The notes: generated by a model from the letters alone, not told the origin. A stretch of DNA of 64,000 bases from an uncultured Ignavibacteriales bacterium (GCA_964495085.1 CAZBUK010000003.1:4528-68527); one strand, 5' to 3'. Positions 12,570 to 43,417 are shown, counted from the stretch's first letter. Translations and numbers: made by a program.

Positions 12570-12740
12570 GCGTGACCTCGATCCGGATCCGATCGATTTC
12601 ACTTGTCGGCGGCGCCGCTTCAACCGACCGTGCTGCCGGCGGTATGCTCGCTCCGGATCGGGTGATGTCGCAGGACCGATCCCATCCGGCACTCACCTGA
12701 AAAAACCGCATTGCACAGAATGGAAAAATCCCGCCTGCCC

Positions 12741-12769
12741 TTGACAAATATTAAAATTGTTTTTATCAT
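12741..12769 (+). promoter_or_regulatory. Sigma70-like promoter TTGACA-17nt-TATCAT upstream of the giant-ORF pair
   Basis: ccTTGACAaatattaaaattgttttTATCATtcc sits in the 690-bp intergenic region between the histidine kinase stop (12569) and the 13256 start. It would give a ~480-nt 5' leader. Confidence 0.45.
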
Positions 12770-13255: not shown

Positions 13256-16200
13256 ATGAAAGCCAATCTGCGGAGCGACCTGCTCCAACGACTTGCGGGA
13301 CATCTCGTCGCCTCGTCTCCCCGTGAAGAGAACGAAATCCGGAACCTGTACCGTTCGTTGACACGGACTGCACTGACCGAAGATCTCGGTGTAACGGAGG
13401 GAAGCCGGTTTGCGATCGAGCACTCCGATCTCTTTGCCGGCGATCTGATTCCGCCGCAGCGACGGAATATGCTGGATTCCATCGCCGGCCGGACTCCCCC
13501 CGGGGGAACCGAACCGGAGCTTCGTTTAAATCTGAGAGAAGTGCCGGTGCGCAGTACGCAACTCCATGCATCGCTCCCGCTTTGGGCCGGCGGCGCCGCG
13601 GTCGATCATACAGTCGGTCCGTTGACGAACAGGGACGGACGGCTCATCTGGTTCGATTTCATAAAGATCGAAAAACTCGTCGCACTCTATATACAGGGTA
13701 ATCCTTTTCCCGCACTGCTGTTTAAAATCAAGACCGGTATACAACAGTACATCGCACCGAATCTTCCGCTCGCCGCGGAAATCCAGCCCGCATACAAACT
13801 CGAGCCCGGAAGTATCTGGATACATTCGAAATTGCTCGCATCGAACGCTCCCAACGGATATTATACAGGTGTCACTATCAGGAGCGGAACCGTCTCACTC
13901 AGTGTACCGCCGCAGGTTGTGGGGGGAAAACTGACAATCAACCCCGGTAACAAGGTAGCGGTGAAGCTGCAGCTTCAGCAGCAGAATGCCCCCGCAGCGG
14001 ATCCGAAAAGTCCCTACGGCAAAGACGCACGCGAAGCACAACTCGCACTCCCTCAAACGCTCGATTTCAACTTTACCGGGAATATATCGTCGACAATTCA
14101 TTCTGGACCGGCACGCTGGAGAGTCTACGGGCACAGGGCGTCCTTTGAGCGGATCGCTCAACAACCTGGAACATACGACGGGTTGCTGCACCGGGTATTG
14201 ATTCCGTACCGTGTATCCACGCAGAATTTCAGCGTTGCGGAGAATCTTTCGCAAAACCATACGCTGGCAGGTGAGACGGCGATCTCAGGAAGCTACTGGG
14301 CCCTCCCGTCCGCTCCGATCGATATAGCGAATCCGTCCCCCGCAGAAGGTATCGGCGGAATGCTCATCATCGGCGGTACGGGACTGACCGTGCGATGGAG
14401 CGGGCTGAATGAAGGCAGTTTAAACCTTACACAACCGTATATACTTGCGGCTCCGGGCCGGCTCGCGGTTTCCGATCTCCAGGCCGGAAACGTTCTCGCT
14501 CACCAGAAATTCGGTATGTGGAAGGATTCACTGAATCCGTTTACCGCCGATGCGAATGTTCATTACCTCAAGTCAGCTCCTTTTTATTATAATTCGCTCG
14601 CCGAAGGCATCGAACTTATTATGACGCATGTGAATGCGGACGTGCGGACGGATCGCCCCGTGACCGTTACGAACGATCCTCCGGAAATTCGCTCCAAAGA
14701 TTCGCTCCTTATCATAGCCGTCACGGATAATTTCCGGCTCCTGTACCTGTTCGACGATAATATACTGCTCGATTCCGCCGGTCCGGCAAACCAGCCGCCG
14801 TCGTTCCCGGAACCGATCTCATTCGCACTCCACAACGCGCTCTTCAAGACGACTCCGGTAAACGCTTGTCTGCTCTTCGGATTTCTTTCGGAAGATTTCT
14901 CGAAAATCGAACGCGGGTCGCTCTATCTGACCTTCGGAGTCTTCGCCTATCTGCCGACACTTCCCGATCCCTACGCCGCGAACGTTAACAATTTAAAGTA
15001 CCAGTTCAGGCAAACGGGGGATTCGCGCACCGGGGGATCGGTATTCGGGACCCATTCAATCTGGATGTGGCTGGTTTGCAGAGTTCAGTGGATTCCCGGA
15101 TCTGAAGAAGAGGATTCGGTTGACGTATCTTTTCATTTCGCGCCGCTTCAGAACCAGCTCCAGATTCTTCCTTCAGAGGACGTGCAACCTGTCGACTTCT
15201 CCTCCCTCATCTCGAGTGTCGACGACGAGCCGCAAGGCTACCTTGAGAAGGAGGGATCCTCACTACCGCCGCCACTTCCCGATTATGAAGGTATCTGGAA
15301 CGAAGTCACCGGAAGGCTGCGGGACGACCATTTCGCTCTGCTCGATGTAAGTACGAACGCCGACCTGCTCGGAATCAGTTTCGGCCTGTTTCATCATACG
15401 CGCATGGCGATGGTAACAACGCATGCCCCCGTCGGTTCAGCGGGGTTCCCGCTTCGCGTAGAGGGTATGGATGTCGTTAGCCGGGGTATGAATGTCAAGG
15501 CGTTTATGGTGCCGCAGATATCCTGGGAGCCGGCCGTGAATCTCACTCCTCCCGACTTGCCGAACAGCGGCGACCCGCCGATAGGTTTCAACTATTATCC
15601 GAACGACGGCGGTCCCGCCCGCATGCTCAACAACAGTCCGGACCAGGTTGCGCTCGCGCCGATTCCGCTTACCGACTTTCTCGTGGAGAAATCCGCGGAT
15701 CAGAATAACTTCGCTGCACTCTCATTATTCACGCTTCCCTTCGGAATGCGCGCTCTGGCCCTTCTCCAGAAGGAATATGTCTATAAAGGTCAATCGAGAC
15801 CGGGAACGAATCTTTCGTTCAACTGGAAAAATTTCCCGTCGAATCTGAAAGGTGCGCGGCAACTGGAGTTGGACGGCGGAGAGGCGCTTCGCGAAGGCGA
15901 GAGCGACATGTTCATGGGAAGCACCGTACAGATCAACAACATTCTCAATACGACGGGCGCCATGACCGGCGCAAGTACACTCGGGGCAAGCGTGACGAAG
16001 ATCTATAATAATGAATGGCTCATGTCTCCGTTCCAGCTCATCCGTCATCGGGGCGTGCCGCTCGAACGCATCGATCTGAGCGGATACGGTGCGAGCACTT
16101 TCAGCAATTGGCTGAATCCGCACGCTGCGATTGCCGAGACGAGCCAGGCAAAGTTCGACGTATTCGTCGGCAGGTGTGCTCATGAAATAATCCAGGTGAA

Positions 16201-18511
16201 GAGCATCATGTATCCGTGGGCGATTAAAGTCGTCAGGACGATCACCCTGTTCCGGGTCGGCAGCGGATACGTGTACCGATACGACAGCGGGTGGCGGGCT
16301 GAGAGTGACGGCAGATACGATTTCACCTATTACGTATATCAGATGGAGAACGGGAAGCTCGTACCCAAACCGCGTGACGCAAAATACGAAATACATCCCG
16401 GCGCCGTGAAGGGATTATTCAATGTAAAGAATATCCGCGAGACGGAGGAAATCGTTCCGTACACCGGAACGATGACGGTACCTCCCGGCGAGACGCTGAT
16501 CAATGAGGTCGGCGAAGAGATCCCCAATCCCGGCGGAGCTTCGCTCGCGTTCGAGCTGCAGCCGGTCTTTTTCGATGCGGATATTGAAATTGAGAACCCC
16601 GTCAGCGGCTTCGAGACGAAGGCAGTCGACGGCCAGCAGAAGAAACTCGTTTCCTCACGGCGGATTCTTGGATTCGTCCAGATCGCACCGCGCGGCCTAC
16701 CTCTGTCCGTAAATACATTCCGCGATATGATCAATCGTCAGGCCGGAGTCATAGGAGGTCCGATCGATTGCGTCGTGGATATCGGCGGTAGCGGCCAGCA
16801 GATGCGCCTGAACAGATTCGACATCAGTAATTCATTCGGTGAAAATGGTACCGATCCGATCTTTGCAGTCGCCGGCCGGGGCAGCGTACTCCTTCCGAAA
16901 GACGGTTCATGGAGCATGGTGCGCCATCAGGTCGGTACGGGCGAGGTGACTCCGGTTCCTCCCGAGCTGAGCCTACCCCTCATCCGTATCGGGAGGCTCA
17001 TCAAAGATTCGAACGGGAATCTTGTTCCCCATGTGAGTCCGGCCAACGCCTTGCTTCGCATCGCAAATCCCGCCGAGCTGCTTCGCTCGTCCATCGGCGA
17101 TACGGTCAACTTCGGATTCCTCCAGACGACGGATACTCAGAAAGCTCTGTTTCTCACGCCGGCGTTCAGGCAGGGGCTCGACAAGCTGCTCAGTAAAACG
17201 CCGCCGCTCTTTGTAGACGCGTTCCGTATCGTAAGCTCGAAAGCAATCTTTCCAAATATCGGCGACGCTGCGGGAAATTTCGGCGATGCGATCTCCCTAA
17301 TGAAAAACGGAAATGAGTTCGTGAAGAATGCCGTCACCGACGGAGGCACGCAGGTACTCGAGGTGATGAAGATAAACGACGTCGTGAATGCAGCAAAACA
17401 GGAAGGGTTCAAACTCCTGAAGCAAATCGAGACGTTCGATCTCCCGAACACGGAATGGGTGCTCATCGAACTCGGGGGCGCGTTTAAAATTTACCTCGAA
17501 TATAAAGCAGACAATATAAAAACCCAGGGGGGCGGCTCGAAAAACGCACCGGGCTCGCTCAACTTCGACGTGGATTCCTTCGCGACGAATCTGACCGATC
17601 AATGGAAAAGTAAAATGAGCAATGTCGCGGTGGTGATCGATCTCGGTCCCATCAAGCGGCTGATGACAATCAAGGGAAACTGGGATGCAGGAAAGGGAGC
17701 CGAGGCGCAGTACGGCGGCAACGCGGCCGATCCGGATTTCCCCTCGCCCCAGCTCGAATTTGCCCCCGAGCTTGAGCCCATTATAGAGATTCTGCAGATA
17801 CTTCAGGATCTGCAGGGAGAGAACTATAAGGATGCGTTCGCACGAGGTCTCAAGCTCGCGATGAGCAACAAAGCGGGGAGTTGGGAATATAAACTCGAAG
17901 CATCGAAGGAAATTCCCGTCGTGCGTTTCCCGATGCCGGCGGCGATCTACAACGACCCCAACACTCCGCTCAAGCTGGAAGCGGGTTTGAAGATCGGAGC
18001 GTACTTCAATGCCGCGCTCAAGGTCACGACGGATCCGAACCAGCTGCTGCCGACGGCGGGTGCGTTCGTCGGTTTCTACGGCAGATTATCGGTGATGTGC
18101 GTTTCCCTCTCAGCCGCAACGATATATGCGGTCGGCCAGGTCAATCTCGATATCGCCGCGGATACGAAGGTCGGACCTTCTCTGAAAATGAAGTTCGGCT
18201 TCGGAGCCCAGATCGTCGTGGGATTGCCGGTCGTCGGAAACGTGAGTGTGCTCTATATGGTCGGTGTCGAGATCTATACCGATTCCACCAAAGTGGTGGT
18301 TTCCGCGTTTCTCCTCTTCAGGGGGCATGCGGAATTACTCGCGGGTCTCGTGTCGGTCACCATAACCATCGAAGCGAAGGGAACGATATCACGAGCGAAC
18401 GATCGGACGGATATGTCGGCGCAGGTGACGTTCGGACTGGACATCAGCATTTTCCTGGTCATCAATATCAGCTTCAGTACCTCCTGGCAGGAAAGCAGGC
18501 AGATCTCATAA
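13256..18511 (+). CDS. Giant hypothetical protein (1751 aa). No recognisable domain, no signal peptide. The C-terminal ~250 aa is Gly/hydrophobic-rich with an alternating polar/apolar pattern.
   Basis: A 5.2-kb open frame without stops in ~58-60% GC DNA cannot be chance. There are no Walker A, DEAD, RHS/YD, Ig or cadherin-like motifs. The C-terminus is ...GAQIVVGLPVVGNVSVLYMVGVEIYTDSTKVVVSAFLLFRGHAELLAGLVSVTITIEAKG...ISIFLVINISFSTSW. There is no SD upstream, unlike its neighbours. Confidence 0.85.
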   Translation: MKANLRSDLLQRLAGHLVASSPREENEIRNLYRSLTRTALTEDLGVTEGSRFAIEHSDLFAGDLIPPQRRNMLDSIAGRTPPGGTEPELRLNLREVPVRSTQLHASLPLWAGGAAVDHTVGPLTNRDGRLIWFDFIKIEKLVALYIQGNPFPALLFKIKTGIQQYIAPNLPLAAEIQPAYKLEPGSIWIHSKLLASNAPNGYYTGVTIRSGTVSLSVPPQVVGGKLTINPGNKVAVKLQLQQQNAPAADPKSPYGKDAREAQLALPQTLDFNFTGNISSTIHSGPARWRVYGHRASFERIAQQPGTYDGLLHRVLIPYRVSTQNFSVAENLSQNHTLAGETAISGSYWALPSAPIDIANPSPAEGIGGMLIIGGTGLTVRWSGLNEGSLNLTQPYILAAPGRLAVSDLQAGNVLAHQKFGMWKDSLNPFTADANVHYLKSAPFYYNSLAEGIELIMTHVNADVRTDRPVTVTNDPPEIRSKDSLLIIAVTDNFRLLYLFDDNILLDSAGPANQPPSFPEPISFALHNALFKTTPVNACLLFGFLSEDFSKIERGSLYLTFGVFAYLPTLPDPYAANVNNLKYQFRQTGDSRTGGSVFGTHSIWMWLVCRVQWIPGSEEEDSVDVSFHFAPLQNQLQILPSEDVQPVDFSSLISSVDDEPQGYLEKEGSSLPPPLPDYEGIWNEVTGRLRDDHFALLDVSTNADLLGISFGLFHHTRMAMVTTHAPVGSAGFPLRVEGMDVVSRGMNVKAFMVPQISWEPAVNLTPPDLPNSGDPPIGFNYYPNDGGPARMLNNSPDQVALAPIPLTDFLVEKSADQNNFAALSLFTLPFGMRALALLQKEYVYKGQSRPGTNLSFNWKNFPSNLKGARQLELDGGEALREGESDMFMGSTVQINNILNTTGAMTGASTLGASVTKIYNNEWLMSPFQLIRHRGVPLERIDLSGYGASTFSNWLNPHAAIAETSQAKFDVFVGRCAHEIIQVKSIMYPWAIKVVRTITLFRVGSGYVYRYDSGWRAESDGRYDFTYYVYQMENGKLVPKPRDAKYEIHPGAVKGLFNVKNIRETEEIVPYTGTMTVPPGETLINEVGEEIPNPGGASLAFELQPVFFDADIEIENPVSGFETKAVDGQQKKLVSSRRILGFVQIAPRGLPLSVNTFRDMINRQAGVIGGPIDCVVDIGGSGQQMRLNRFDISNSFGENGTDPIFAVAGRGSVLLPKDGSWSMVRHQVGTGEVTPVPPELSLPLIRIGRLIKDSNGNLVPHVSPANALLRIANPAELLRSSIGDTVNFGFLQTTDTQKALFLTPAFRQGLDKLLSKTPPLFVDAFRIVSSKAIFPNIGDAAGNFGDAISLMKNGNEFVKNAVTDGGTQVLEVMKINDVVNAAKQEGFKLLKQIETFDLPNTEWVLIELGGAFKIYLEYKADNIKTQGGGSKNAPGSLNFDVDSFATNLTDQWKSKMSNVAVVIDLGPIKRLMTIKGNWDAGKGAEAQYGGNAADPDFPSPQLEFAPELEPIIEILQILQDLQGENYKDAFARGLKLAMSNKAGSWEYKLEASKEIPVVRFPMPAAIYNDPNTPLKLEAGLKIGAYFNAALKVTTDPNQLLPTAGAFVGFYGRLSVMCVSLSAATIYAVGQVNLDIAADTKVGPSLKMKFGFGAQIVVGLPVVGNVSVLYMVGVEIYTDSTKVVVSAFLLFRGHAELLAGLVSVTITIEAKGTISRANDRTDMSAQVTFGLDISIFLVINISFSTSWQESRQIS

Positions 18512-18607
18512 TCTATCCGGCGAATGAACATGCGGCTATGGACGAACCAAGAATTCAGCGATGAACGATAATATATATACCTTATCATGAAGGCGAGCTG
18601 ATCAGTT

Positions 18608-21600
18608 ATGGAACAGAACAGAAGATTCTCGATCCTACCTTTTCCGCAGTTATTCGACGGAACGAGGCTGTCCCTTCATATCGTCGTGTTGCCGCGGAAC
18701 CAAAATCCGCTTCAGCCCGCGATCGAGCAGCATCCGATAATACCCGATGCCCCGGCGTTCGCCGACGCCCGGTTCACATTCAGGGCGAATATTGTCAGCG
18801 GCGTGGCCGGTTTCCCGAACAATCACTCGGCGCAAGCGTCGATTTCTCTGCCGGTAGATCAGCCGGCACAGACGCGGGCGTTGTTTACGGCACTGGCAGA
18901 TCAATTCAGCATTTCCAATCTCAACCAGATTAACGACAATCCGACTGTCAATAACCCGGCTTCTTCCGCGGACAAAGCGGAGGAAGCAAAAATATCCCCT
19001 TATCCGGTGAAGAAGTATTTGCCGCTCACCTACCGGAAAGCGTTCAACTTCACCACACCGCGCACGAAAGCGGCGGTTACCGACGACAGCTATCACTGCG
19101 CGGTTCGTAATGCGGGTAAGGTTCCCGGATTCAAACGCAGTCCCGACGAGATAAGCTGGGGGAAGGTTTTCGCCTATGTGCTTCGACAACCGCTCCTTGC
19201 CCGGTCGTTGAAGATGATTTTCTCTACTTCCCTCACGATCGATGCGTCGCACTTCCCGAACGGCGGCTGGCTGTTCGTCGATCTTGCCGCTGACAGCGAT
19301 TATCTGCAGCAACAGCAGACTGATCATGCATTCATTCGATCATACGCGGCGCGAATTCCGGCACTTACCCTGAACAACCGCCGGACGATGTTTGCGCCGC
19401 TGCTGTTCCCGGTGCTTTTCAAACCGAACGCCGCTGATCCCGATCCGTCGCCCGACGGGAATTTCGACCGGCTCTTGATCGAAGCCTCCGAGTTCAACGA
19501 CGGTTTCGCAAAGATCGTCCATGCCAGACAGCCCGTAAGCCGGCAATTACTCGATGAGCAGAATGAAAACGGCCATCCCGTGAAAGATATCGGTATTCAG
19601 TTCGGATGGGAAGACGAAACGATACTCGAGTGGTATCTGAGACAACTCGCGGCAGATGCTTCGGTTTCCAATCCTGACAAACGACTCGACGTTCCCCTCG
19701 GCGTTTTCGGCTATGCGATCGATGTGCGCGAGACTGCAAATCCCGCTCAACAATGGGAATCACTGAATCAGGTCTCGAGCCGGGCGCCTCTGTCAGTCGC
19801 AATCCCGCCGAACGACACGATCGTACTGGGCGGCTTCACGGGCGAACTCCCGTACCAGGTATATCCGATGCAGCTCGACGGCGAAGCCGGAGGCGACTAC
19901 TGGCTGCCGATGTACTTCGCGAATTGGAACGGGCACAGCATGGTGCTCCCCGATCCGGATGCATCCCGCGTCTACCGGACCGATGCCGCCGACCTGAAGG
20001 CCGATCCGGAAAACGGATCCACCGGAACAGGCGTGACGGGTCCTGCCCAGGACAGACTGAATCAGATTTACGAGGCGGCGCCCGTCAACACGAACCTGCG
20101 TTACGGGAGGCAGTATGACTTCAGAGTTCGCATGCGGGATCTGAGCGGAGGCGGTCCGGCGCCGGATGCGGTACCTGCGATCGAAAGCCCGTCGTCGATC
20201 GCGAGATGCAGGTTTAAAAGATACGTGGCGCCGAACCAGCCGAGGATTCAGAATCTTCCGGTGAATACCGATGCCGCAGCCGATGTCGACTCGCTTACCG
20301 TTCAAAGACCGCTGCTCGGGTATCCCGCAGTCATCTACACGGACAAATATTCCGATCCGGTTACCCGGCTGCGGACGGCGTCGGAGAACATGGAAGGCGT
20401 CGAGGCTTTCGGAATTCCCGACCCTGACGTCGATCGTATCGAGATATCGGTCGAAGTGGAGACGCTGAAGCTCGATAATCTGATGAGCTTATCCGGCAAG
20501 GATAACTACGTACATCTCTACACGACCCGGCGGCCGTTTCCTGCAATCGGTACTGATGACGACTACGATGCCGTGCTGCAGATACCAATCGAATACCGCG
20601 ATGTGAAAGTGCTGCATACGGGACAGGAGCAGAACCTGCAGGCGGATTTCAATCTTGATGACGATATTGATAACCTTGCCGGCATATTCCTGCCGACCGC
20701 AAGAAATGTCCGGGTCACTCTCCGCGCGGTATGCGAGGAAAAGGCGAGCGACGACGAGTACTACGGGTCGCTCGATCCGGCGAATCGCGACCGGGATTCG
20801 CGTTACGGACATACGGTCGAGATACTTCTCTACCGGCCATCTACCGATGAACGGGATCTGTTCGTGGATAGCGCTCCATCGGAGCGGCTCAGAGGTATTT
20901 ATCTGCAGCCCGACGCGCCGGTCGTGTTCGACGGAAAGATAACGACGTTGTTGTTCGGGAAGGAGGTCGTGAAGCCGCCGGATATGATACAACGTCTGGC
21001 TAAAGAATTGAATCTCGAAAACACGGGGCTGACGCTGGTTGCCCCGAAAGGAGAACGCGTTCAATTCGGATGCTCGAGCCGGATCAGGCATACACTTGCT
21101 CCCGATAATTCATCACTTACGTTCTCTTCGAAAGGAGATATCGCACATCACTGGTTGTGCTGTGTGCAGCTAACCATCGACCGGGACTGGACATGGCATG
21201 GTCTCGAGGACCGGGCGTTCGTCATCGTTCGAATTCAGCATTTTACGAACGACGCGGCTTCGGAAACGGAGGAAAAAACGGTAGGAGACATGGAGATTCG
21301 ACGGGCCGCATCGTTCGAGTCGCTGCACAGTCCGAAACGAAATTACACACGCCTCGTATTCATCGATGCAGTGGAGCCCAAGAATGAACGCATGCAGCCA
21401 CCGCCTCATCAGCAGGAGCCGAGATTTCCCGATACGATCGATGTGAGCTATCGGATTACGACCCACTTCAAACAGGATCACGCGGCGCAGCGCGACGGCG
21501 AAACCGCACAGGAGATCCGGTTGCCGATAACCACCACCCCGTCGCAGGTACCCAGAATCGCTTCTGCGGGCATAGCTCTTTCTCCCTATATCCGGAACGA

Positions 21601-22786
21601 TAGATACTCTGCAACAGAACCACGTCAGCGATTTCTCTGGATTGAATTCGAAGAACCGGTTCGCGATCCGAACGATACCTATTTTGCGCGAATGCTCGTC
21701 TATGCGCCCGATCAACTCATCAGCAATAACAGTCCCGAGCTGCTGCAAGCTCCTCAGGACCCTTCACTTCCGATCGATCCGGAGGAAATCCGGATCGTGA
21801 TGCCCGGGGCCACGAACGACCTGGCAGGATTGAATGCCATGCAGCCCATGACGAAGGCCACCGACAGCGACCGGCACTACATTCTCCCGATTCCTCCGGG
21901 TCTCCATGCCGATTCCGACGAAATGTTCGGGTTCTATACCTACGAGTTCAGGATCGGACACTACCGCGATCGGGATACCAACGAAATGGTATGGTGTACC
22001 GCCCAGGGGAGATTCGGCAGGCGGCTCCGCGCGACGGGAATTCAACACCCCGCGCCGACTCTCACATGTGCGGTTAACCGCGACGAAAAAAAGCTCTGGG
22101 TGACCGCACCATATGCGGTTGCGGTAGCCAACGGGAAGAATATGACGGCTGATCCACCACGCACCGGACTTTGGTGTCTGCTCTACGCGCAGGTCAGGCA
22201 GGCCGACGGCAAAGATTACCGGAATATTCTGCTTGACGATAAACAACTTGACTGGAGGGTGCAAGTGGAAACCGAATCTCGGATGAGTCGCCTGGAGAGA
22301 TACGATGACGATCAACTATTCACGCTGAAGAATCTTACCGTGAAGAATTTCAAGGATGAAGTGAGCTATGCGAAATTCGCGCAGGTATTCAAGCTGGTCG
22401 ATTTCGACAAACTGAACAAAGACGCCCGCAAGTACGGAACCGTCGTATGGAGCAACGATGAGGTGGGGCAGTGGTTAAAACTGTTCGGACTGCCGGGCGA
22501 TACGCCATTGAGCGTCCTCGTCGTTGAATTGCTTCCGCAGATTACGAATATATATGAGCACATCCCGGCACTCGGTACCCAGCAGGTAAACGCGAATCTT
22601 CGAAGGACTGAAGGTATCGGCGGGATTCCGACGACGAAGGAAGCGTCCGAACGAGCGGATGATCTTCGCAGACAACTCGATCTTCGCCAATCGCGGAGTC
22701 CGTTAAGCGATGAACTGGGACATCATCGAATTTTAAGAACGTCCCCGCTGACAGAAGTACCGTTCGTGTGCTGCACGACATGCTGA
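18608..22786 (+). CDS. Giant hypothetical protein (1392 aa). No recognisable domain. It is rich in Asp/Pro/Arg and ends in a Cys cluster, ...VPFVCCTTC.
   Basis: A 4.2-kb open frame lies 96 bp downstream of the 1751-aa ORF on the same strand, so it is likely co-transcribed. It has no signal peptide and no NTP-binding or nuclease motifs. It is convergent with the LacI gene at 22846..23880. Confidence 0.85.
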   Translation: MEQNRRFSILPFPQLFDGTRLSLHIVVLPRNQNPLQPAIEQHPIIPDAPAFADARFTFRANIVSGVAGFPNNHSAQASISLPVDQPAQTRALFTALADQFSISNLNQINDNPTVNNPASSADKAEEAKISPYPVKKYLPLTYRKAFNFTTPRTKAAVTDDSYHCAVRNAGKVPGFKRSPDEISWGKVFAYVLRQPLLARSLKMIFSTSLTIDASHFPNGGWLFVDLAADSDYLQQQQTDHAFIRSYAARIPALTLNNRRTMFAPLLFPVLFKPNAADPDPSPDGNFDRLLIEASEFNDGFAKIVHARQPVSRQLLDEQNENGHPVKDIGIQFGWEDETILEWYLRQLAADASVSNPDKRLDVPLGVFGYAIDVRETANPAQQWESLNQVSSRAPLSVAIPPNDTIVLGGFTGELPYQVYPMQLDGEAGGDYWLPMYFANWNGHSMVLPDPDASRVYRTDAADLKADPENGSTGTGVTGPAQDRLNQIYEAAPVNTNLRYGRQYDFRVRMRDLSGGGPAPDAVPAIESPSSIARCRFKRYVAPNQPRIQNLPVNTDAAADVDSLTVQRPLLGYPAVIYTDKYSDPVTRLRTASENMEGVEAFGIPDPDVDRIEISVEVETLKLDNLMSLSGKDNYVHLYTTRRPFPAIGTDDDYDAVLQIPIEYRDVKVLHTGQEQNLQADFNLDDDIDNLAGIFLPTARNVRVTLRAVCEEKASDDEYYGSLDPANRDRDSRYGHTVEILLYRPSTDERDLFVDSAPSERLRGIYLQPDAPVVFDGKITTLLFGKEVVKPPDMIQRLAKELNLENTGLTLVAPKGERVQFGCSSRIRHTLAPDNSSLTFSSKGDIAHHWLCCVQLTIDRDWTWHGLEDRAFVIVRIQHFTNDAASETEEKTVGDMEIRRAASFESLHSPKRNYTRLVFIDAVEPKNERMQPPPHQQEPRFPDTIDVSYRITTHFKQDHAAQRDGETAQEIRLPITTTPSQVPRIASAGIALSPYIRNDRYSATEPRQRFLWIEFEEPVRDPNDTYFARMLVYAPDQLISNNSPELLQAPQDPSLPIDPEEIRIVMPGATNDLAGLNAMQPMTKATDSDRHYILPIPPGLHADSDEMFGFYTYEFRIGHYRDRDTNEMVWCTAQGRFGRRLRATGIQHPAPTLTCAVNRDEKKLWVTAPYAVAVANGKNMTADPPRTGLWCLLYAQVRQADGKDYRNILLDDKQLDWRVQVETESRMSRLERYDDDQLFTLKNLTVKNFKDEVSYAKFAQVFKLVDFDKLNKDARKYGTVVWSNDEVGQWLKLFGLPGDTPLSVLVVELLPQITNIYEHIPALGTQQVNANLRRTEGIGGIPTTKEASERADDLRRQLDLRQSRSPLSDELGHHRILRTSPLTEVPFVCCTTC

Positions 22787-28945: not shown

Positions 28946-29051
28946 ATCGTTCTGAGATATATATGCTGCTCAGCGGAGTTCATGGGGAGGCGACCGTTTT
29001 ACCGGACGCTTTCCCGTCATCGATATGTACCAAACAGTATGGCAGGTCGAT

Positions 29052-30776
29052 ATGAATCCGGCGAAACGAAATATCATCGGCGTGGACTATGGAACCGATT
29101 CGGTCAGGTCGGTTCTGGTGAATGCCGGCGGCGAACAGCTGGGTGAATCCGTCTTCAATTATCCGCGATGGGCGGGGGGCAGGTATTGCGCTCCCGCACG
29201 GAATATGTTCCGCCATCACCCCCTTGATTATCTCGAAGGACTCGAGGCGACCATACGATCGATTCTATCGTCGGTACCGTCGACGGAGGTCGCGAAGGTA
29301 GGCGCCATCTCAGTCGATTCGACGGGCTCTACTCCGGCAGCGGTCGACAGAGCAGGTACGCCGTTAGCGCTCCATGCCGAGTTCGCGGAGAATCCGAATG
29401 CTATGTTCATACTCTGGAAAGACCATACGGCGATCCGGGAAGCCGAGGAGATCAACAACACGGCGAGAAGCTGGGGTGGAATCGATTTTACGAAATTTGT
29501 CGGCGGCGTCTATTCATCGGAATGGTTCTGGGCTAAGATCCTGCACACGCTCAGGACCGATGAGAAGATTCGATCGGCGGCCCATTCCTGGGTCGAACTC
29601 TGCGATTGGATCCCGTACGTGCTCACGGGCGCTGAAGATGTTTCCCGGATGAAGAGAAGTCGCTGCGCCGCGGGACATAAAGCGATGTGGCATAAAGATT
29701 TCGAAGGTCTGCCGTCGGAAGAGTTTTTAGAGCGAATCGATCCGCTGCTCGCCGGCCTGCGTGACAGGTTGTTTAAGGATACCTATACTGCCGATATTCC
29801 GGCGGGAAATCTCTCGGGATTATGGGCGGAGAAGCTCGGACTTCCGCGAGACGTTGTCGTCGGTGTAGGAGCGTTCGACGCACACATGGGCGCTGTCGGA
29901 GCGGGCATCGAACCTTATCATCTATGCAGGGTCATGGGTACCTCCACATGCGATATGCTGGTCGCACCTATGGAGGAAGTGGGAGATATACTTGTTCGAG
30001 GCATCTGTGGCCAGGTCGAAGGATCGGTTTTCCCCGATATGCTGGGGATGGAAGCCGGTCAGTCGTCTTTCGGGGATGTCTACGCATGGTTCAGAGACGT
30101 CCTCATGTGGCCTGTCGAAAAGTTGCTATCGAATTCCGATTTTCTCGAGACGGGGCAAAAGGAACGGCTTCTGCGGGAGGCACATCGCGGCATTATTCCA
30201 ATGCTCTCCGGAGCGGCTGCAAAACTGGAGCCCGGTTCGTTCGACATCGTCGCGCTCGACTGGCTGAACGGACGGAGAACCCCCGACGCCAATCAGGTGC
30301 TGAAAGGAGCGATCGAGGGCTTGAACCTGGCGAGCGATGCGCCGCTTCTCTTCAAGTCGCTGGTAGAGGCAACGTGTTTCGGAGCAAAAATGATAGTCGA
30401 CCGGTTCGTGGATGAAGGAGTTCCGATCAAGGGGATTATCGGAACCGGTGGGGTGGCCCGGAAGGCACCCTACGTGATGCAGACGCTTGCGGATGTCCTC
30501 GATATGCCGATCAGGATCACCCGGTCCGAGCAGACATGCGCCATAGGAGCTGCGATGTTCGGAGCGACAGCCGCGGGGATACACAAAGACGTGTACGAAG
30601 CACAGCGTTCGATGTTCGAAGGTTTCGACCGGACCTACCGACCCGATGCCGGTCGGGCACGGATTTACGCTACACTCTACGGTCGCTATAAATCGCTCGG
30701 CTCCGCAATCGAAGCCAGACTCATGAATTTCCACAAGTCTAAGGATCGTCCGGATGAGCAGATATCAGGAGATTAA
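29052..30776 (+). CDS. araB: L-ribulokinase (FGGY carbohydrate kinase family)
   Basis: FGGY N-terminal motif NIIGVDYGTDSVRSVLV and a ~575-aa length typical of ribulokinase. C-terminal FGGY blocks GGV/GTGG are present. It is immediately followed by araD. The track ORF is 29025..30776; I start it at the ATG at 29052 (MNPAKRNIIGVDYG). Confidence 0.85.
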   Translation: MNPAKRNIIGVDYGTDSVRSVLVNAGGEQLGESVFNYPRWAGGRYCAPARNMFRHHPLDYLEGLEATIRSILSSVPSTEVAKVGAISVDSTGSTPAAVDRAGTPLALHAEFAENPNAMFILWKDHTAIREAEEINNTARSWGGIDFTKFVGGVYSSEWFWAKILHTLRTDEKIRSAAHSWVELCDWIPYVLTGAEDVSRMKRSRCAAGHKAMWHKDFEGLPSEEFLERIDPLLAGLRDRLFKDTYTADIPAGNLSGLWAEKLGLPRDVVVGVGAFDAHMGAVGAGIEPYHLCRVMGTSTCDMLVAPMEEVGDILVRGICGQVEGSVFPDMLGMEAGQSSFGDVYAWFRDVLMWPVEKLLSNSDFLETGQKERLLREAHRGIIPMLSGAAAKLEPGSFDIVALDWLNGRRTPDANQVLKGAIEGLNLASDAPLLFKSLVEATCFGAKMIVDRFVDEGVPIKGIIGTGGVARKAPYVMQTLADVLDMPIRITRSEQTCAIGAAMFGATAAGIHKDVYEAQRSMFEGFDRTYRPDAGRARIYATLYGRYKSLGSAIEARLMNFHKSKDRPDEQISGD

Positions 30777-32879: not shown

Positions 32880-33734
32880 ATGTATTCTCTTTTCTGTTCT
32901 TGGATGACGTAATCTCCCCGCGATGCTCACATGGTTCGATAGCCTGTAGGAATCCGGAAAGGTTATGGGCCGCCGTAACGAGCGGTAAGACGCGAATATC
33001 CGGGGAAGGAGTCATATCTAGTTAGTGAATCCGTTGTGACGATGCGGATAATGTAACAACACTTTTTTCATAGTGCAAGATCTTTCGGAACATTTTATAT
33101 TTACATGGACGGTTTATCAATTCATCTTTTATCTCAGACACAAGGGATTTGTAGAAATAAAATGGCCCTGTCGGAAATAACAAAACTGAAGGGTTTTTAT
33201 GGAGGACCTGGAACGGAGCGCTTCGATGTGACACCGGCAGTTAAGGAGGATATAAGTCTGCGCCTTCTTCGCTACCCGGCATCTGTACCGGGAATAATAT
33301 GCGAGTCATCTGACAGTCACCTCTACCACCTTCAACAGGTATGTGCGTGATTGTGGCTCACACCGAAAGCGTGAAATATCGTCAGCATTATTTTTCCCCA
33401 TCAATCTGACAAACGTCGATGCATCGAATGTAAGATCACGGATTAACACGAAAGTTTACTCGTTGTTGAATTCGTACAGACTGCTGATCTCGGAAGTTAT
33501 CCGATGGATTCTAAGATATTTCTAATGTTTCATCAACCAACAGTCCATCAACGAGCAGGTATAGTTGATGACGTTTAAGGAATGATTAGAGATCAGGAAT
33601 TCATGCATACATATTAAGTGTTCGACATACACCAATGACAGCGGAGAGGGATGAAATTTTCAGTCTCGAGAAAATAATCTATTGAAACCGACGTATATTT
33701 CGTGATCTCGAAAAATTTTAGTTTAGAATTTTGT

Positions 33735-33797
33735 TGCTTCAAGCTTGACTTTCTAAAAATTATCATTTACCTTGAATCAGTTCAATTTTGGTTAAAT
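33735..33797 (+). promoter_or_regulatory. Promoter/operator-like element upstream of TonB-dependent receptor #1. It is a TTGACT hexamer followed by two direct copies of AATCAGTTCAAT spaced 21 bp apart.
   Basis: agcTTGACTttctaaaaattatcatttaccttgAATCAGTTCAATtttggttaAATCAGTTCAATcagcc lies in a 1.1-kb AT-rich non-coding region. The same hexamer and repeat recur at 50663-50724 upstream of TonB-dependent receptor #2. Confidence 0.5.
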
Positions 33798-34074
33798 CAG
33801 TTCAATCAGCCATACTCCATACACTACCTGATAGACATTTAGTCGATTTTTTGTTCTTCTTCATACCACCTTGTTGCACATCATCGATGAGGTTGAGTAT
33901 ATATAACCGGAATCTGTACGATAAATAACCGGACTATTCTCGAATGAAAGAACAGAGCCAAAATCGTTGTATCAATAACACCTCCGATATAACTTCCTCA
34001 AAATGTTCTCGAGCATCTCTTTGCGTCCCGTTCAGAGGTTCATTTAATTTATAGATACTCAGGAGAGGTATTTC

Positions 34075-37000
34075 ATGATTAATTCAAGATTCTACCTGTT
34101 TCCTTTTATCATATTGCTTTTGGGTCTCGGCATCACTTCAGCACAGGATCTCCCAACAGAACAGAGATTCGGACATCTGGATGGGGTCATAACGGACCTA
34201 TCAACAGGAGCGCCGCTCATAGGTGCTAACGTTATTCTCGAGGGCACAAGTTTAGGATCCGCCACCGATCAAAATGGTAAGTATAGTATTCTCAGAGTTC
34301 CCTCAGGATCGCATACACTTGCTGTTAGCTATATCGGTTATCAAAACGTGAAATTGGAGATCGATGTACCGGGCGGAGAAACGACCACCTACGATGTGTC
34401 GTTGGCATTTCATTATGTTGAAGGTGAAGTCGTTACAATAACCGCGCAAGCGAGCGGGCAAATGCAGGCAATAAACGAGCAACTAAGCGCCCGAACAATA
34501 AAAAACATTGTAGCCGCTGAACGTATTCGTGAGTTACCCGATGAGAATGCCGCTACGGCTCTCAGCAGGTTACCGGGGGTTTCTCTACAGGAAGGAGACA
34601 AAGTAGTCGTACGCGGGATTCAGGCAAAATTGAATACTGTTCTTATAAATGGCATACAACTTCCAGCGACTACAACAACAGACCGATCGACTAATCTCGG
34701 ATTTATCTCATCTAACATGCTTGCGGGGGTCGAGGTAACTAAAGCAGTTACTCCCGATATGGACGCAAATGCTATCGGCGGGGTCGTCAATCTTCGACTC
34801 AGGGAAGCTCCGGTTGACTGGCATTTCGATATATCGACGCAAGGTTCGTACAATACTCAGAATCGAACATATCCCGGGCAAAACTATCAGGTATGGATAA
34901 GCGGTAGCAACAGGTTTTTAGACAATAAGCTCGGAGTATTCTTACAGGGGAACAGTTACCGGCAGGATGCTGGCCCGGATATCGGCAATGTCGTATATGA
35001 GAGGATGGGGCCGGGACAGGATCGCCAATACGGCGAGGCGACTTGGGGTATGCAGCAGTTCGAATACATGAATGAGATCAACGTGACGGAACAATACGGG
35101 GGAAGTCTTATTCTCGATTTTGTCTTGCCCCGCGGCAAACTCATGCTGCAGAATACGTATGCATACACGAACCCCAACAACACGCAGCATATGGACCGGC
35201 TGGGAATCGGCGCCGGCTCCCTGCTAAACCGGCTCGAGCGCAACATTTTTTCTAAGCATGTCCTGGTTAACGCATTGCAGGGAGATAACAGGTTTGGTTC
35301 AATCAACGTTGATTATGGCGTATCGCATGCGCAATCCCGTCAGGACACAGATTTATGGTACTGGGTCGAGTGGAATCCGGTCGCGGCATTCGACGGATTC
35401 GGCGAAAGTGTACGGCGCTTCTTTACCCCGGAGGACGTGTACAAAATACAATACTACGATGACTTCAGGGCGGGACAGACAGTCAGGGACGGCAGTACGC
35501 GCAGCGAATTTTTTAAGGAGCGGCAGGTTGTTGCCCACATGAACGTGACCGTGCCCGTCACGATATCCAGCTTTATATCAGGGGATATCAAGACGGGAGG
35601 CAAAGTGAATTTCCTCGGCCGTGAAAACGATACACAGCGCTCTTTTGCGCGTCTTTCGGAGGGCGATAACAATCGGACCGCACGGGATTTTCTTGTGGAT
35701 GTGGTCGGCGTCGCCAATTGGAACAGTCCATTGCGGTTCCTGGACTTTCGCGACAACAACTTCGATAAGGGGCAGTATTTTCTTGGCGGAGACTATAACA
35801 TGCGGGATGTCCTCAGGACGGACTGGATGGATCAATACATGCGTCTGGCTCCGCCCGGTTGGCCCCGCGGAGAGCAGAGCCCCTTCAACCACATTGCCGA
35901 TTCCCGAAGGTTCGACTACGAAACAGAGGAACGACTTTCTGCAGGATACCTGATGGCGGATATGAGTATCGGCTCGCGGCTCACCGTTTTGGCCGGCGTT
36001 CGGTACGAGCATTTCCAAATGGACTATGAAGCCACGTACATGCTCGAGACGCACTTCGACGGGAATGGACGGGAGATCCTCGTCGAAGAACAAATACAAG
36101 CGATGGGAGAACCGCTCACCATTGCAAAGCGAAGTGTCGATCACTGGTTCCCGAATGTGCAAGTTCGGTACTGGATTACCAACTGGTTTGACGTGCGGCT
36201 TGCGTATACAAAAACGCTCTCGAGGCCCAACTATAATCAACTCATGCCCAATATTTTCGTCACGCAGGCCAGCGGAGAGGCGGGCAATCCGAATCTGCGG
36301 CCGACCGTGTCGGATAATTATGATATCTTCTTTTCATTTTCGAACAATACAGTAGGATTGTTTACCGTCGGCGGTTTTTATAAGCGCTTGGAGGACGTGG
36401 TTCTTCAGCAACGGATCCAACGAGACCTTCTTGATTTGTATGCCCCCGGGGAGATCTCATGGCCCGACCCTGCAACCACTCTTCCTAATGTTCGCTCCAC
36501 ACAATTAATTACAACCTTTGTGAATAATCCGCATCCGGCGATAGTACGGGGAATCGAATTCGACTGGCAGACGAATTTCTGGTATCTGCCGCAACCGTTG
36601 AATTCAATGGTCCTGAATATCAATTATACGCGTATCTTCTCTGAAATGGACTACAGGCAGATCATCAATATACAACGCACGGATCCCCTGACTGGTCTTC
36701 CCGTAGTCACAGTTATTGATACGATACTTACTGCCCGGCTCCTTCAGCAGGGGAATGACGTCGTCAATATCGCGGTGGGCGCCGATTATCGCGGTTTTTC
36801 CGCGAGGATATCCTTCCGGCTGCAGGGGGATGTGATCACCACTGTCGGCAACCGTCCCGAAGAAGATGCATTCACCGAAGATGTGTATTCATGGGATTTC
36901 ACGCTCAGGCAACGTCTACCGATCCAGGGTATGAGCGTATTTTTTAGCGGCATGAATATCACCCACGCGCCTACTAATGATTTCCGGCATTTCCGGCGGG

Positions 37001-39093: not shown

Positions 39094-39155
39094 CGTTTGA
39101 TTCGGCCGGTAAAGAGCTGGCAGAGGTTTACAAACATCGCGATGGATGTACCCTA

Positions 39156-39192
39156 AAAGCCCCGGTCGTCGGTTTGACCGGGGCTTTTTATT
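39156..39192 (+). terminator. Rho-independent terminator after the T9SS beta-helix gene
   Basis: AAAGCCCCGGTC-gtcggttt-GACCGGGGCTTT is a perfect 12-bp stem. It is followed by TTTATT. Confidence 0.7.
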
Positions 39193-39228
39193 CAGCATGT
39201 ATCAAGTCCCAATAAAGAAATTTACTCT

Positions 39229-43402: not shown

Positions 43403-43417
43403 TACAAAGGTGCTCGT

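What the first reader, a model, noticed from the sequence alone, without database searches (positions are those of the whole stretch)
13256..22786. Two-gene cassette of giant ORFan proteins (1751 aa + 1392 aa) with no recognisable domains, embedded in a sugar-catabolic region
What the sequence shows: two uninterrupted co-directional frames of 5.2 kb and 4.2 kb, 96 bp apart, amounting to about 9.5 kb of coding DNA.

What I looked for and did not find in either protein:
- signal peptide, lipobox or T9SS CTD;
- Walker A/B, DEAD/DEAH, histidine-kinase or nuclease motifs;
- RHS/YD, VCBS, Ig, cadherin or beta-helix repeat periodicity.

Context that marks the cassette as foreign:
- Nearly every neighbour is a recognisable sugar-metabolism gene. 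This block sits between a cytoplasmic hybrid histidine kinase on the same strand upstream and a convergent LacI gene downstream.
- It is visibly GC-richer, about 58-60% by eye, than the flanking T9SS loci.
- Neither giant ORF has the AGGAGG-type ribosome-binding site that most neighbouring genes carry.

Protein features worth following:
- Protein 1 ends in a ~250-aa Gly/Val/Leu-rich stretch with alternating polar/apolar periodicity (...VGLPVVGNVSVLYMVGVEIYTDSTKVVVSAFLLF...VTITIEAKG...ISIFLVINISFSTSW). That is what a membrane-inserting or amphipathic beta-region would look like.
- Protein 2 is Asp/Pro/Arg-rich and ends in the Cys cluster VPFVCCTTC.

These properties (size, pairing, atypical composition, no secretion signal) recall toxin or defence cargo islands, yet none of the diagnostic motifs of Tc toxins, RHS, Druantia, Zorya or BREX giant proteins are present. 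This is the best candidate for an undescribed system in the window.
Basis: partly seen in the sequence, partly recalled or inferred. Interest (0 to 1): 0.85.

Follow-up and report, generated by a model that had tools for sequence, protein, structure and literature searches.

The report
Widespread uncharacterised giant two-protein module
Two very large neighbouring genes that match no known protein family are not unique to this genome: the same gene pair, always together, is scattered across at least a dozen bacterial phyla, and its function is unknown, the best guess being a self-contained membrane-attacking defence or toxin module.

Summary
The two ORFs (13256-18511, 1751 aa, "A"; 18608-22786, 1392 aa, "B") are real. 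Neither matches Pfam, NCBIfam, PADLOC or PDB sequences, and the one weak PHROGs hit is noise.

They are not ORFans. At least 262 species genomes in 12 or more phyla encode A. B lies directly downstream in 76 of 77 loci (median gap 31 nt), and A and B identities co-vary (r=0.97). Flanking genes are unrelated between loci, and no third gene is conserved. This is an autonomous, horizontally spread two-gene module that no library or searched paper describes.

AlphaFold models:
- A has no signal peptide, and Bacillus homologues keep this domain.
- B shows only generic FN3-like sandwiches.
- B ends in a universally conserved tail, RILRTSPL..VP..C.

The phyletic pattern is what shows horizontal transfer.

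Best guess (about 0.3): an export-independent complex acting on the cytoplasmic membrane, probably in defence. Function is unproven.

The parts
12578..12596 (+). Terminator-like hairpin just after the upstream hybrid histidine kinase gene. It suggests the pair is not co-transcribed with the kinase.
   Evidence: Consensus scan only. The kinase is not conserved next to the pair in other loci.
12741..12769 (+). Sigma-70-like promoter candidate (TTGACA-17-TATCAT, 11/12) in the 686-bp spacer upstream of A.
   Evidence: Consensus scan, not evidence of function. The upstream DNA is not conserved with other loci.
13256..15160 (+). Protein A, N-terminal region (aa 1-635). Fold unknown because it was not modelled.
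   Evidence: Conserved full-length in all homologues. No family or PDB match. No signal peptide.
15161..15280 (+). Protein A, variable acidic/Pro-rich linker (aa ~636-675).
   Evidence: Lowest conservation in alignment A1.
15281..17848 (+). Protein A, central all-beta region (aa 676-1531). This is the most confidently modelled part.
   Evidence: AF2 model m4f8841ec3f36: pLDDT mostly 80-96 and nearly all strands. Foldseek finds only giant beta-meander proteins at TM<=0.14.
17849..18508 (+). Protein A, C-terminal amphipathic beta-meander (aa 1532-1751): about 10-11 antiparallel strands, nine of them 14-19 residues long. It is the most conserved part of A and contains invariant C1615.
18512..18607 (+). 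96-bp A-B spacer, consistent with an operon.
   Evidence: Across 67 complete pairs the median A-B gap is 31 nt (IQR 17-69).
18608..22786 (+). Protein B (1392 aa): a mixed alpha/beta multidomain protein with FN3/Ig-like beta-sandwich domain(s). No enzyme fold was detected.
21071..21163 (+). Protein B, conserved Cys/His cluster (C822, H828, H848, C851/C852). Possible metal site.
   Evidence: Invariant or near-invariant columns in alignments A2 and A4. Geometry was not checked, so this is inference only.
22565..22693 (+). Protein B, variable linker (aa ~1320-1362). It is absent in the shorter Bacillus-type subfamily.
   Evidence: Alignment A6. Conservation profile.
22694..22783 (+). Protein B, universally conserved C-terminal tail: PLSDELGHHRILRTSPLTEVPFVCCTTC.
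   Evidence: P1365, G1371, R1374, R1377, S1379, L1381 and C1388 are invariant across 19 loci from ~10 phyla, including the 30%-identity subfamilies.

Best explanation
A and B are the two obligate subunits of a self-contained, horizontally mobile module that works without any dedicated export or accessory gene. Because the same pair functions in monoderm and diderm phyla with no conserved partner and no signal peptides, its site of action should be the producer's own cytoplasm or cytoplasmic membrane.

Proposed mechanism:
1. A and B form a large cytoplasmic complex. B's conserved C-terminal tail may dock on A.
2. On a trigger, most plausibly phage infection, the highly conserved amphipathic beta-hairpin stack at A's C-terminus inserts into the cytoplasmic membrane as a beta-barrel-like pore, probably as an oligomer.
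3. Membrane integrity collapses, as in abortive-infection defence.

Shown: the obligate pairing, the horizontal spread, the absence of export signals, the beta-barrel-like amphipathic domain and its exclusivity to this family.

Inferred: complex formation, membrane insertion, the trigger and the defence role.
For: - Pairing is obligate: B is directly downstream in 76/77 loci, and A/B identities co-vary with r=0.965.
- All-vs-all clustering of 1016 flanking ORFs finds no conserved third gene. Upstream neighbours are heterogeneous.
- The pair occurs in at least 262 species genomes across Bacteroidota, Acidobacteriota, Nitrospirota, Chloroflexota, Cyanobacteria, Verrucomicrobiota, Planctomycetota, Actinomycetota, Chlorobiota, Bacillota and Pseudomonadota. 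Identity does not follow taxonomy.
- Neither protein has a signal peptide or TM helix.
- A's C-terminal strands are strictly amphipathic and form the most conserved part of the protein.
- The domain is retained in Bacillus and is exclusive to this family.
- Its pLDDT is only 50-80 despite maximal conservation, as expected for a conformation that depends on an oligomer or a membrane.
- Some loci lie in conflict or mobile contexts: AbiE plus PLD-SNF2; a Type I R-M system plus GIY-YIG directly upstream; the prophage lysis-cassette accessory position in two Bacillus strains; between RelBE and HipAB on a Tistrella plasmid; among transposases on a Microvirga plasmid and, with partition genes, on a Chlorohelix plasmid.
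Against: - No PADLOC model hits either protein.
- There is no NTPase, nuclease or other sensor or enzyme domain, which is unusual for a defence system.
- A PADLOC census of 135 upstream neighbours shows no family in more than 2 members. Most loci, including this window, are in ordinary metabolic neighbourhoods.
- No relative was found in IMG/VR viral contigs or in GenBank phages.
- Neither protein has a hypervariable region, whereas many immune sensors diversify.
- A Bacteroidota subclade carries a dedicated PAS+LuxR regulator upstream, which suggests conditional physiological expression.
- The barrel-like fold rests on a moderate-confidence part of a monomer AF2 model built from only 71 sequences. 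TM-scores to real barrels are low.
- A aa 1-675 and B aa 1201-1392 were not modelled.
Confidence: 0.3

Rival explanations
1. A physiological, non-conflict role. A and B would form a large beta-rich complex that binds or organises lipid or another hydrophobic surface from the cytoplasmic side. A's amphipathic beta-sheet would act as a lipid-contacting belt or groove, by analogy with LptD/AsmA-type beta-grooves or the ApoB beta-belt. Expression would be under environmental control.
For: - Purifying selection is very strong along both proteins: mean column identity is 58-65% across phyla, with no hypervariable segment.
- Most loci lie among housekeeping or metabolic genes.
- A dedicated PAS+LuxR regulator lies directly upstream in 8 Bacteroidota loci, and PAS-type signalling proteins lie upstream in this window and in Microvirga.
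- Foldseek's best hits include LptD and the ApoB-100 beta-belt, both lipid-binding beta-sheets.
- Catalase genes lie next to the pair in Chlorohelix and Tistrella.
Against: - The distribution is extremely patchy: about 0.14% of species genomes, and 141 representative clusters among 1.84 billion proteins. Cross-phylum transfer is evident. Both are typical of accessory or conflict genes rather than core physiology.
- There is no N-terminal membrane anchor and no AsmA, TamB or Lpt family signal.
- Foldseek TM-scores are <=0.14.
Confidence: 0.22
2. A lysis-released binary toxin aimed at eukaryotic grazers or hosts, or at other bacteria. A would be a beta-pore-forming translocator whose C-terminal hairpins insert into the target membrane. 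B would be the cargo or partner, and its C-terminal Cys would possibly be lipidated in the target cell.
For: - The layout is two components on plasmids or prophage accessory regions of Bacillus thuringiensis and B. toyonensis, next to a holin/endolysin cassette.
- A signal peptide is also absent from Bt crystal toxins, which are released by lysis (my own knowledge).
- A carries an amphipathic beta-hairpin domain.
- A Cys lies near B's C-terminus.
- The pair spreads horizontally among environmental bacteria.
Against: - Outside Bacillus no lysis or secretion gene travels with the pair, so release would have no general route.
- There is no variable receptor-binding or toxin domain, and the C-terminus is the most conserved part.
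- No immunity gene is conserved.
- The C-terminal Cys is 0-5 residues from the end, so it is not a canonical CaaX box.
- Carriers include autotrophs such as Nitrospira, Brocadia and Chlorobiaceae.
Confidence: 0.15
3. The pair is itself part of a mobile genetic element, for example structural or transfer proteins of an unrecognised element, or a selfish addiction module.
For: The pair moves between phyla as a discrete unit. It sometimes sits among transposases, toxin-antitoxin genes or plasmid partition genes.
Against: - No terminal inverted or direct repeats flank the block, and flanking DNA is not conserved between loci.
- No integrase, transposase or relaxase is consistently adjacent.
- No nucleic-acid-binding or enzymatic domain was detected.
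- It is absent from viral collections.
Confidence: 0.04

Closest known systems
Transmembrane beta-barrel proteins of outer membranes (CymA, TonB-dependent receptors, LptD, Omp85/TpsB, ushers, autotransporter beta-domains)
   Different: - No sequence homology.
- No Sec signal peptide.
- No C-terminal aromatic beta-signal: A ends ...SWQESRQIS.
- The domain sits at the end of a 1751-aa protein that looks cytoplasmic.
- It is conserved in Bacillus, which has no outer membrane.
- Foldseek TM-scores are <=0.14.
Membrane-disrupting effectors of abortive-infection defence systems (for example the beta-barrel effector Cap15 of CBASS, and bacterial gasdermins; recalled from my own knowledge)
   Same: These are cytoplasmically made proteins without signal peptides that insert into the producer's own inner membrane. 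The genes are horizontally mobile and patchily distributed, and some loci lie in defence islands.
   Different: - No PADLOC hit.
- No associated cyclase, protease or NTPase sensor.
- The proteins are ten-fold larger.
- No defence enrichment was seen in the neighbour census.
- No experimental evidence exists.
Binary or beta-pore-forming toxins and Tc/RHS toxin complexes
   Same: A two-gene operon of very large proteins, amphipathic beta-hairpins that could form a pore, and horizontal spread that includes Bacillus thuringiensis plasmids or prophages.
   Different: - No RHS/YD, TcA, TcB or pore-forming-toxin family or fold match.
- No internal repeats.
- No secretion signal.
- No variable toxin tip and no immunity gene.
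Giant lipid-binding beta-sheet proteins (LptD/AsmA-TamB-type grooves, ApoB-100 beta-belt)
   Same: A very long up-and-down beta-sheet with a continuous hydrophobic face. LptD and ApoB-100 appear among the Foldseek hits.
   Different: E-values are marginal and TM-scores are ~0.08-0.1. There is no N-terminal anchor, no family HMM hit, and the phyletic pattern is accessory rather than core.
FN3/Ig-like domain proteins (for protein B)
   Different: This is a generic fold that covers less than 10% of B. Pfam detects no FN3, Ig or Big domain. The rest of B has no fold match.

Membership tests
Outer-membrane beta-barrel proteins (BAM substrates) | N-terminal Sec signal peptide for export | tested here: not met
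   A starts MKANLRSDLLQRLAGHLVASSPREENE. No hydrophobic h-region and no KD19>1.6 window lies near the N-terminus. The family consensus is likewise non-signal.
Outer-membrane beta-barrel proteins (BAM substrates) | C-terminal beta-signal ending in an aromatic residue | tested here: not met
   A ends ...ISFSTSWQESRQIS. Bacillus ends ...YPYQATLKL and Chlorohelix ends ...WQEKKQV.
Outer-membrane beta-barrel proteins (BAM substrates) | Restricted to organisms with an outer membrane | tested here: not met
   Homologous pairs occur in Bacillus toyonensis and B. thuringiensis (Bacillota) and in Chloroflexota. The C-terminal strands are retained in Bacillus.
Outer-membrane beta-barrel proteins (BAM substrates) | Closed antiparallel transmembrane beta-barrel fold | tested here: inconclusive
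Tc toxin complexes / RHS-YD proteins | RHS/YD repeats or TcA/TcB/TcC domains detectable by HMM, and a beta-cocoon or TcA fold | tested here: not met
Known anti-phage defence systems (PADLOC-DB v2) | Match to a defence-protein HMM | tested here: not met
   0 families at E<=1 for both proteins.
Known anti-phage defence systems (PADLOC-DB v2) | Enrichment of known defence genes in the neighbourhood (defence-island score) | tested here: inconclusive
   About 5 of 11 annotated contexts contain R-M, Abi, TA or prophage-accessory genes. A PADLOC census of 135 upstream ORFs found no family in more than 2 members. No matched background was computed.
Polymorphic toxin systems (Rhs/CDI/LXG type) | Hypervariable C-terminal toxin domain plus an adjacent cognate immunity gene | tested here: not met
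   The C-termini of A and B are their most conserved parts. No conserved small downstream gene was found.
Beta-pore-forming / binary toxins | Recognisable pore-forming-toxin fold (aerolysin, haemolysin, PA, MACPF/CDC) and a secretion route | tested here: not met
AsmA/TamB/Lpt-type lipid-transport proteins | Family HMM match and an N-terminal membrane anchor | tested here: not met
   No Pfam or NCBIfam hit and no N-terminal TM segment. There is only weak architectural similarity to LptD (E 5e-5, TM 0.08).
Tat-exported proteins (considered for B because of N-terminal 'NRRFSIL') | Conserved twin-arginine motif followed by a hydrophobic h-region | tested here: not met
   The RR is not conserved: Bacillus has MATIPFKLTL, Chlorohelix has a single R, and Microvirga has TRL. 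Residues 7-29 are confidently modelled beta-strands of a folded domain.
CaaX / Rab-type prenylation substrates (considered for B's tail) | Cys exactly four residues from the C-terminus (CaaX), or a terminal CC/CXC | tested here: not met
   The invariant Cys is followed by 0-5 residues in different members...FVC...LCC...ELCL...ICLD...CCPNCD...CCPPEV.
Discrete mobile genetic element | Terminal repeats, target-site duplication, or an associated integrase or transposase | tested here: not met
   Only short chance repeats were found. Flanking DNA is not conserved between loci. No recurrent recombinase is adjacent.

The most novel reading that the evidence does not exclude
The pair defines a previously undescribed class of self-contained two-protein system. 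A giant protein made in the cytoplasm would carry a transmembrane-beta-barrel-like domain that inserts into a membrane without Sec, BAM or any accessory factor, in monoderm and diderm bacteria alike. It would be controlled by an equally large partner through a universally conserved Cys-terminated tail. That would be a new mechanism of pore formation used for immunity or killing.
Probability: 0.3. Interest if true: 0.85.

Novelty: categorically new. Interest (0 to 1): 0.62.

Why it matters
If the function can be established, about 9.5 kb of strongly conserved coding DNA would gain a role. This DNA has spread across at least a dozen bacterial phyla and is currently annotated everywhere as 'hypothetical protein'.

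The architecture challenges the usual rule that long amphipathic beta-barrel-type domains belong to Sec- and BAM-dependent outer-membrane proteins. Here a beta-barrel-like domain sits at the end of a signal-less giant protein, is kept in Bacillus, and always comes with a second giant protein bearing an invariant C-terminal peptide. A Sec-independent beta-pore used from inside the cell would be a new effector principle for bacterial immunity or toxicity.

The family is also directly testable. Several cultured strains carry it: Cyclobacterium xiamenense, Algoriphagus aestuarii, Maribellus maritimus, Flavisolibacter longurius, Nordella sp. HKS 07, Microvirga terrae, Tistrella mobilis, and Bacillus toyonensis and B. 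thuringiensis.

If it turns out to be a structural or lipid-handling complex instead, it is still a large uncharted protein family with two new multidomain architectures.

Tried and rejected
- Composition as evidence of foreign origin: GC, GC3 and codon distance are only ~1.4 SD from the window mean or within range. The real compositional outlier in the window is 39-43 kb.
- RBS absence as a marker: not distinctive.
- A and B as diverged paralogues: hhalign probability 0.2%.
- Internal repeats: none at probability >=50.
- PHROG hit phrog_10984 on B: it matches only 1 of 19 family members, so it is noise. phrog_25750 matches 4/19 weakly and has unknown function.
- PDB sequence relatives by profile search: none.
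- Recognisable domains in divergent homologues (Bacillus, Chlorohelix, Microvirga): none.
- A's C-terminal domain as a shuffled module in other architectures: it is exclusive to this family.
- Phage origin: no match in GenBank phages or IMG/VR.
- A conserved third gene or immunity gene: none. The only recurrent neighbour is a clade-specific PAS+LuxR regulator.
- RNA elements in or around the block: no Rfam hit at E<=1.
- Terminal repeats or conserved flanks: none.
- Tat signal on B and a CaaX box on B: rejected.
- Literature: no paper mentions six representative accessions, and keyword searches found nothing relevant.
- Source record of the window: not retrievable.

Full report
**1. The observation**

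- Pfam-A, NCBIfam and PADLOC give no hit at E<=1 for either protein.
- PHROGs gives one weak hit on B. It is noise, because only 1 of 19 family members matches it.
- There is no Walker A, DEAD, HExxH or GDSL motif, no hydrophobic N-terminus and no TM-helix-like window apart from hydrophobic beta segments at A's C-terminus.
- Windowed profile self-comparison shows no internal repeats.
- B is indeed Asp/Pro/Arg-rich and ends VPFVCCTTC.
- The neighbours are sugar-catabolic genes (GH31, AraA, a sodium:solute symporter, aldose epimerase, arabinofuranosidase, LacI regulators). A PAS-HisKA-HATPase-REC hybrid kinase lies upstream on the same strand and a convergent LacI lies downstream.

- The proteins are not ORFans (section 2).
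- GC is 0.552 (A) and 0.557 (B), not 58-60%. The other 29 window genes average 0.506 +- 0.035 (GC3 0.576 +- 0.05 against 0.65 and 0.64). That is about 1.4 SD, matched by ordinary genes at 29025-30776 (0.564) and 61876-63420 (0.558). Codon-usage distance (0.25 and 0.31) is inside the window's range of 0.17-0.66. The strongest compositional outlier in the window is the low-GC stretch at 39-43 kb.
- Only about 11 of 29 window genes have a Shine-Dalgarno core, and most immediate neighbours lack one, so its absence before A and B marks nothing.

**2. A widespread, obligately paired family**

A has more than 160 and B at least 979 full-length homologues, at 50-75% identity over 100% of the length. 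All are unnamed and none has a Pfam domain.

A scan of one genome per species found relatives of A in at least 262 species. The taxa represented are:
- Bacteroidota: Saprospiraceae, Lewinellaceae, Chitinophagaceae, Algoriphagus, Cyclobacterium, Maribellus, Flavobacteriaceae
- Acidobacteriota, Nitrospirota, Chloroflexota, Cyanobacteria
- Verrucomicrobiota and Planctomycetota (Brocadia)
- Actinomycetota (a Mycobacterium sp.)
- Chlorobiota and Ignavibacteriota
- Alpha-, beta-, gamma- and deltaproteobacteria

More divergent subfamilies (27-30% identity to A) keep the same two-gene layout:
- Bacillus toyonensis: 1617+1232 aa
- Chlorohelix: 1695+1202 aa
- Microvirga terrae: 1604+1216 aa
- Tistrella mobilis also carries the pair

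The Bacillus-type branch is itself cross-phylum: B. thuringiensis 90%, Microcystis 69%, Flavobacteriia about 50%.

Across the fetched loci the pairing statistics are:
- B lies directly downstream of A on the same strand in 76 of 77 loci that have room. The exception is L013.
- The median A-B gap is 31 nt.
- A and B identities to the window copies co-vary with r = 0.965 over 67 complete pairs.

The flanks are unrelated from locus to locus. All-vs-all clustering of 1016 flanking ORFs finds no family in more than 12 of 86 loci. The top cluster is generic two-component proteins, and the other recurrent clusters reflect synteny within Algoriphagus. A Pfam census of 135 upstream ORFs is a mix of metabolic genes.

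The only recurrent, position-specific neighbour is a ~230-aa PAS+LuxR-HTH regulator. It sits ~120-200 bp upstream on the same strand in 8 loci from three Bacteroidota orders.

The window's closest relatives (73-75%) are in Acidobacteria and Ignavibacteria MAGs, whereas other Bacteroidota copies are only 43-50% identical. Horizontal transfer is therefore well supported, but by phylogenetic incongruence and variable context rather than by composition.

Nothing marks the block as a discrete mobile element:
- no terminal repeats and no conserved flanking DNA;
- no Rfam element;
- no relatives in phage or viral collections.

A terminator-like hairpin (12578-12596) and a sigma-70-like promoter candidate (12741-12769) suggest the pair is transcribed independently of the upstream kinase. 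These are consensus matches only.

**3. Anatomy**

Both proteins are strongly conserved along their length. Mean column identity is 58% for A and 65% for B, in alignments that span many phyla. The only variable segments are short linkers: A ~636-675 and B ~100-130 and ~1320-1362. A and B are not homologous to each other. Profile searches find no relative among PDB sequences.

*Protein A.* An AlphaFold2 model of A 676-1751, built on a 71-sequence alignment, has mean pLDDT 80.6 and pTM 0.72 and is almost entirely beta. Residues ~930-1530 are the most confident part, at pLDDT 80-96.

The last ~220 residues (A 1532-1751) form about ten to eleven antiparallel strands, nine of them 14-19 residues long.
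- Every strand has one strongly hydrophobic face (mean Kyte-Doolittle +2.2 to +3.0) and one polar face (-1 to -2.4).
- This is the most conserved part of A, with column identity 0.81-0.96.
- It is nevertheless only moderately confident in the monomer model (pLDDT 50-80).
- Foldseek agrees only at the level of architecture. Its hits are LptD, Deinococcus SlpA, ushers, SprA and the ApoB beta-belt, with only 5 hits at E<=1e-3 and TM-scores <=0.14. No specific solved relative exists.
- An exhaustive phmmer search with A 1480-1751 against 1.84 billion representative proteins finds just 141 hits. Every full-length hit (about 1530-1870 aa) carries the domain at its extreme C-terminus, and the rest look like assembly fragments. 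The domain is exclusive to this family.
- It is collinearly retained in the Bacillus homologue, whose last strand reads INISIFLVIDINVS against LDISIFLVINISFS here.

The deepest conserved feature of B is its C-terminal tail, PL(S/G)xxLGxxRILRTSPLxxVPxxC(C). P1365, G1371, R1374, R1377, S1379, L1381 and C1388 are invariant in 19 loci from about ten phyla, including the 30%-identity subfamilies. The Bacillus-type subfamily lacks the variable linker that precedes the tail.

The invariant Cys is followed by 0-5 residues, so it is not a CaaX box.

B also has a conserved C822/H828/H848/C851 cluster that could bind a metal. That is inference only.

**4. How it most likely works**

Shown:
- A and B are co-inherited and co-diverging.
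- No other gene travels with them.
- Neither has an export signal.
- The same pair exists in monoderms (Bacillus, Chloroflexota) and in diderms.

Inference: whatever the pair does must work with components common to all these cells, namely the cytoplasm and the cytoplasmic membrane.

A's C-terminal domain has the sequence pattern and predicted shape of lipid-embedded beta-barrel wall. It is the family's most conserved element, yet the monomer model is uncertain there, which fits a conformation completed by oligomerisation, a partner or a membrane.

My best-supported model (confidence ~0.3) is an A-B cytoplasmic complex whose effector step is insertion of A's beta-hairpin stack into the cytoplasmic membrane. 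B would act as regulator or sensor, and its invariant tail would be a docking or latch peptide. The biological role would most likely be abortive-infection-type defence.

Evidence for a conflict role is anecdotal:
- The pair sits beside AbiE plus a PLD-SNF2 helicase.
- It sits directly after a complete Type I R-M system.
- In two Bacillus strains it occupies the accessory slot after a prophage holin/endolysin cassette.
- On the Tistrella plasmid it sits between RelBE and HipAB.
- On two other plasmids it sits among transposases, or among transposases and partition genes.

Evidence against:
- No PADLOC hit.
- No NTPase, nuclease or other sensor domain.
- No clear defence enrichment among 135 upstream neighbours.
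- Many purely metabolic contexts, including this window.
- No hypervariable region.
- A dedicated PAS+LuxR regulator in one subclade.

**5. Rivals**

- (a) A physiological lipid- or membrane-associated beta-sheet complex (~0.22). Uniform purifying selection, housekeeping contexts, PAS-type regulators and the LptD/ApoB-like Foldseek hits favour it. The extremely patchy, HGT-driven distribution and the lack of any anchor or family signal disfavour it.
- (b) A lysis-released binary toxin (~0.15). The Bacillus plasmid and prophage context and the amphipathic hairpins favour it. Against it: no general release route, no toxin fold, no variable tip, no immunity gene, and autotrophic carriers.
- (c) Part of a mobile element (~0.04). 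No mobility signatures were found.

The remaining probability is 'something else'.

**6. Comparison with what is known**

The closest resemblances are architectural only: outer-membrane beta-barrels for A's C-terminus and FN3 sandwiches for part of B. Every membership test that could be run failed or was inconclusive.
- For outer-membrane barrels, the signal peptide, the beta-signal and the restriction to diderms are all not met.
- Tc/RHS, PADLOC defence systems, polymorphic toxins, known pore-forming folds, AsmA/Lpt, Tat, CaaX and mobile-element signatures are all not met.

Literature searches found no description of the family or of six representative accessions.

**7. Limits**

- Model coordinates could not be inspected, so barrel closure and the putative metal site are unverified.
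- The defence-neighbourhood assessment lacks a matched background.
- The window's source organism could not be identified.

**8. Verdict**

This is not an orphan but a conserved, cross-phylum, obligately paired module with no relatives among characterised proteins. Function is unknown, and a membrane-active conflict role is the leading but unproven hypothesis.

Interest is 0.62. The family lies outside every known kind tested here.

Noticed in passing
L028:246-938, L029:9153-9851, L036:9041-9799, L045:8261-9046, L046:9174-9851, L047:1110-1802, L053:4891-5571, L078:9162-9854: A ~230-aa PAS-like + LuxR/GerE-HTH regulator sits 120-200 bp upstream of A on the same strand in 8 loci from three Bacteroidota orders. 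It appears to travel with the pair as a three-gene version of the module. In L081 a homologue lies just downstream on the opposite strand. The PAS domain lacks the LOV signature.
   Followed up: partly
window 39000-43500 (genes 39229-40980 and 41042-43402); also 33000-35000: These low-GC stretches (0.40-0.43 against a window mean of 0.505) are the strongest compositional outliers in the window, more so than the A/B block. The 786-aa ORF at 41042-43402 has no Pfam hit. Its neighbour is a PPIase-domain protein.
   Followed up: no
L013:9980-15283 (Lewinellaceae MAG, 3.5-Mb contig): This is the only locus where a full-length A homologue (67% identity) has no B within 10 kb downstream. No N-masking is present. 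B may be elsewhere in the genome or lost.
   Followed up: partly
L004:16141-19630 (same contig as L025); L088:8138-12850 (Tistrella pTM1): These look like decaying copies. In L004, B is split into 225-aa and 952-aa ORFs. In Tistrella, the annotated A-like gene is only ~1230 aa and is followed by a ~1-kb unannotated gap before B.
   Followed up: no
L006:9312-11486 (Chlorohelix katG) and L088:18281-20401 (Tistrella catalase): Catalase or peroxidase genes lie next to the divergent pairs on two unrelated plasmids. This was not seen in the 80 genome loci and may be coincidence.
   Followed up: no
window 21071-21163 (B aa 822-852): There is an invariant or near-invariant Cys/His cluster: C822-x5-H828 ... 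H848-x2-C851(C852). It could be a structural metal site. The geometry in the model was not checked.
   Followed up: no
window 37225-39093 and 34075-37086: A Por_Secre_tail (T9SS C-terminal sorting domain) protein and a CarboxypepD_reg-TonB-dependent receptor confirm a T9SS-bearing FCB-group host. About a third of the genes nevertheless have strong AGGAGG sites, which is unusual for classical Bacteroidia.
   Followed up: no
L005:1-2320 and L089:1482-3102 (Bacillus toyonensis / B. thuringiensis): In both Bacillus strains the pair lies just downstream of a prophage lysis cassette (holin, XhlA, GH25 endolysin) and upstream of DUF2441, HNH and MazG genes. This is the accessory ('moron') position of a prophage or phage-plasmid.
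   Followed up: partly
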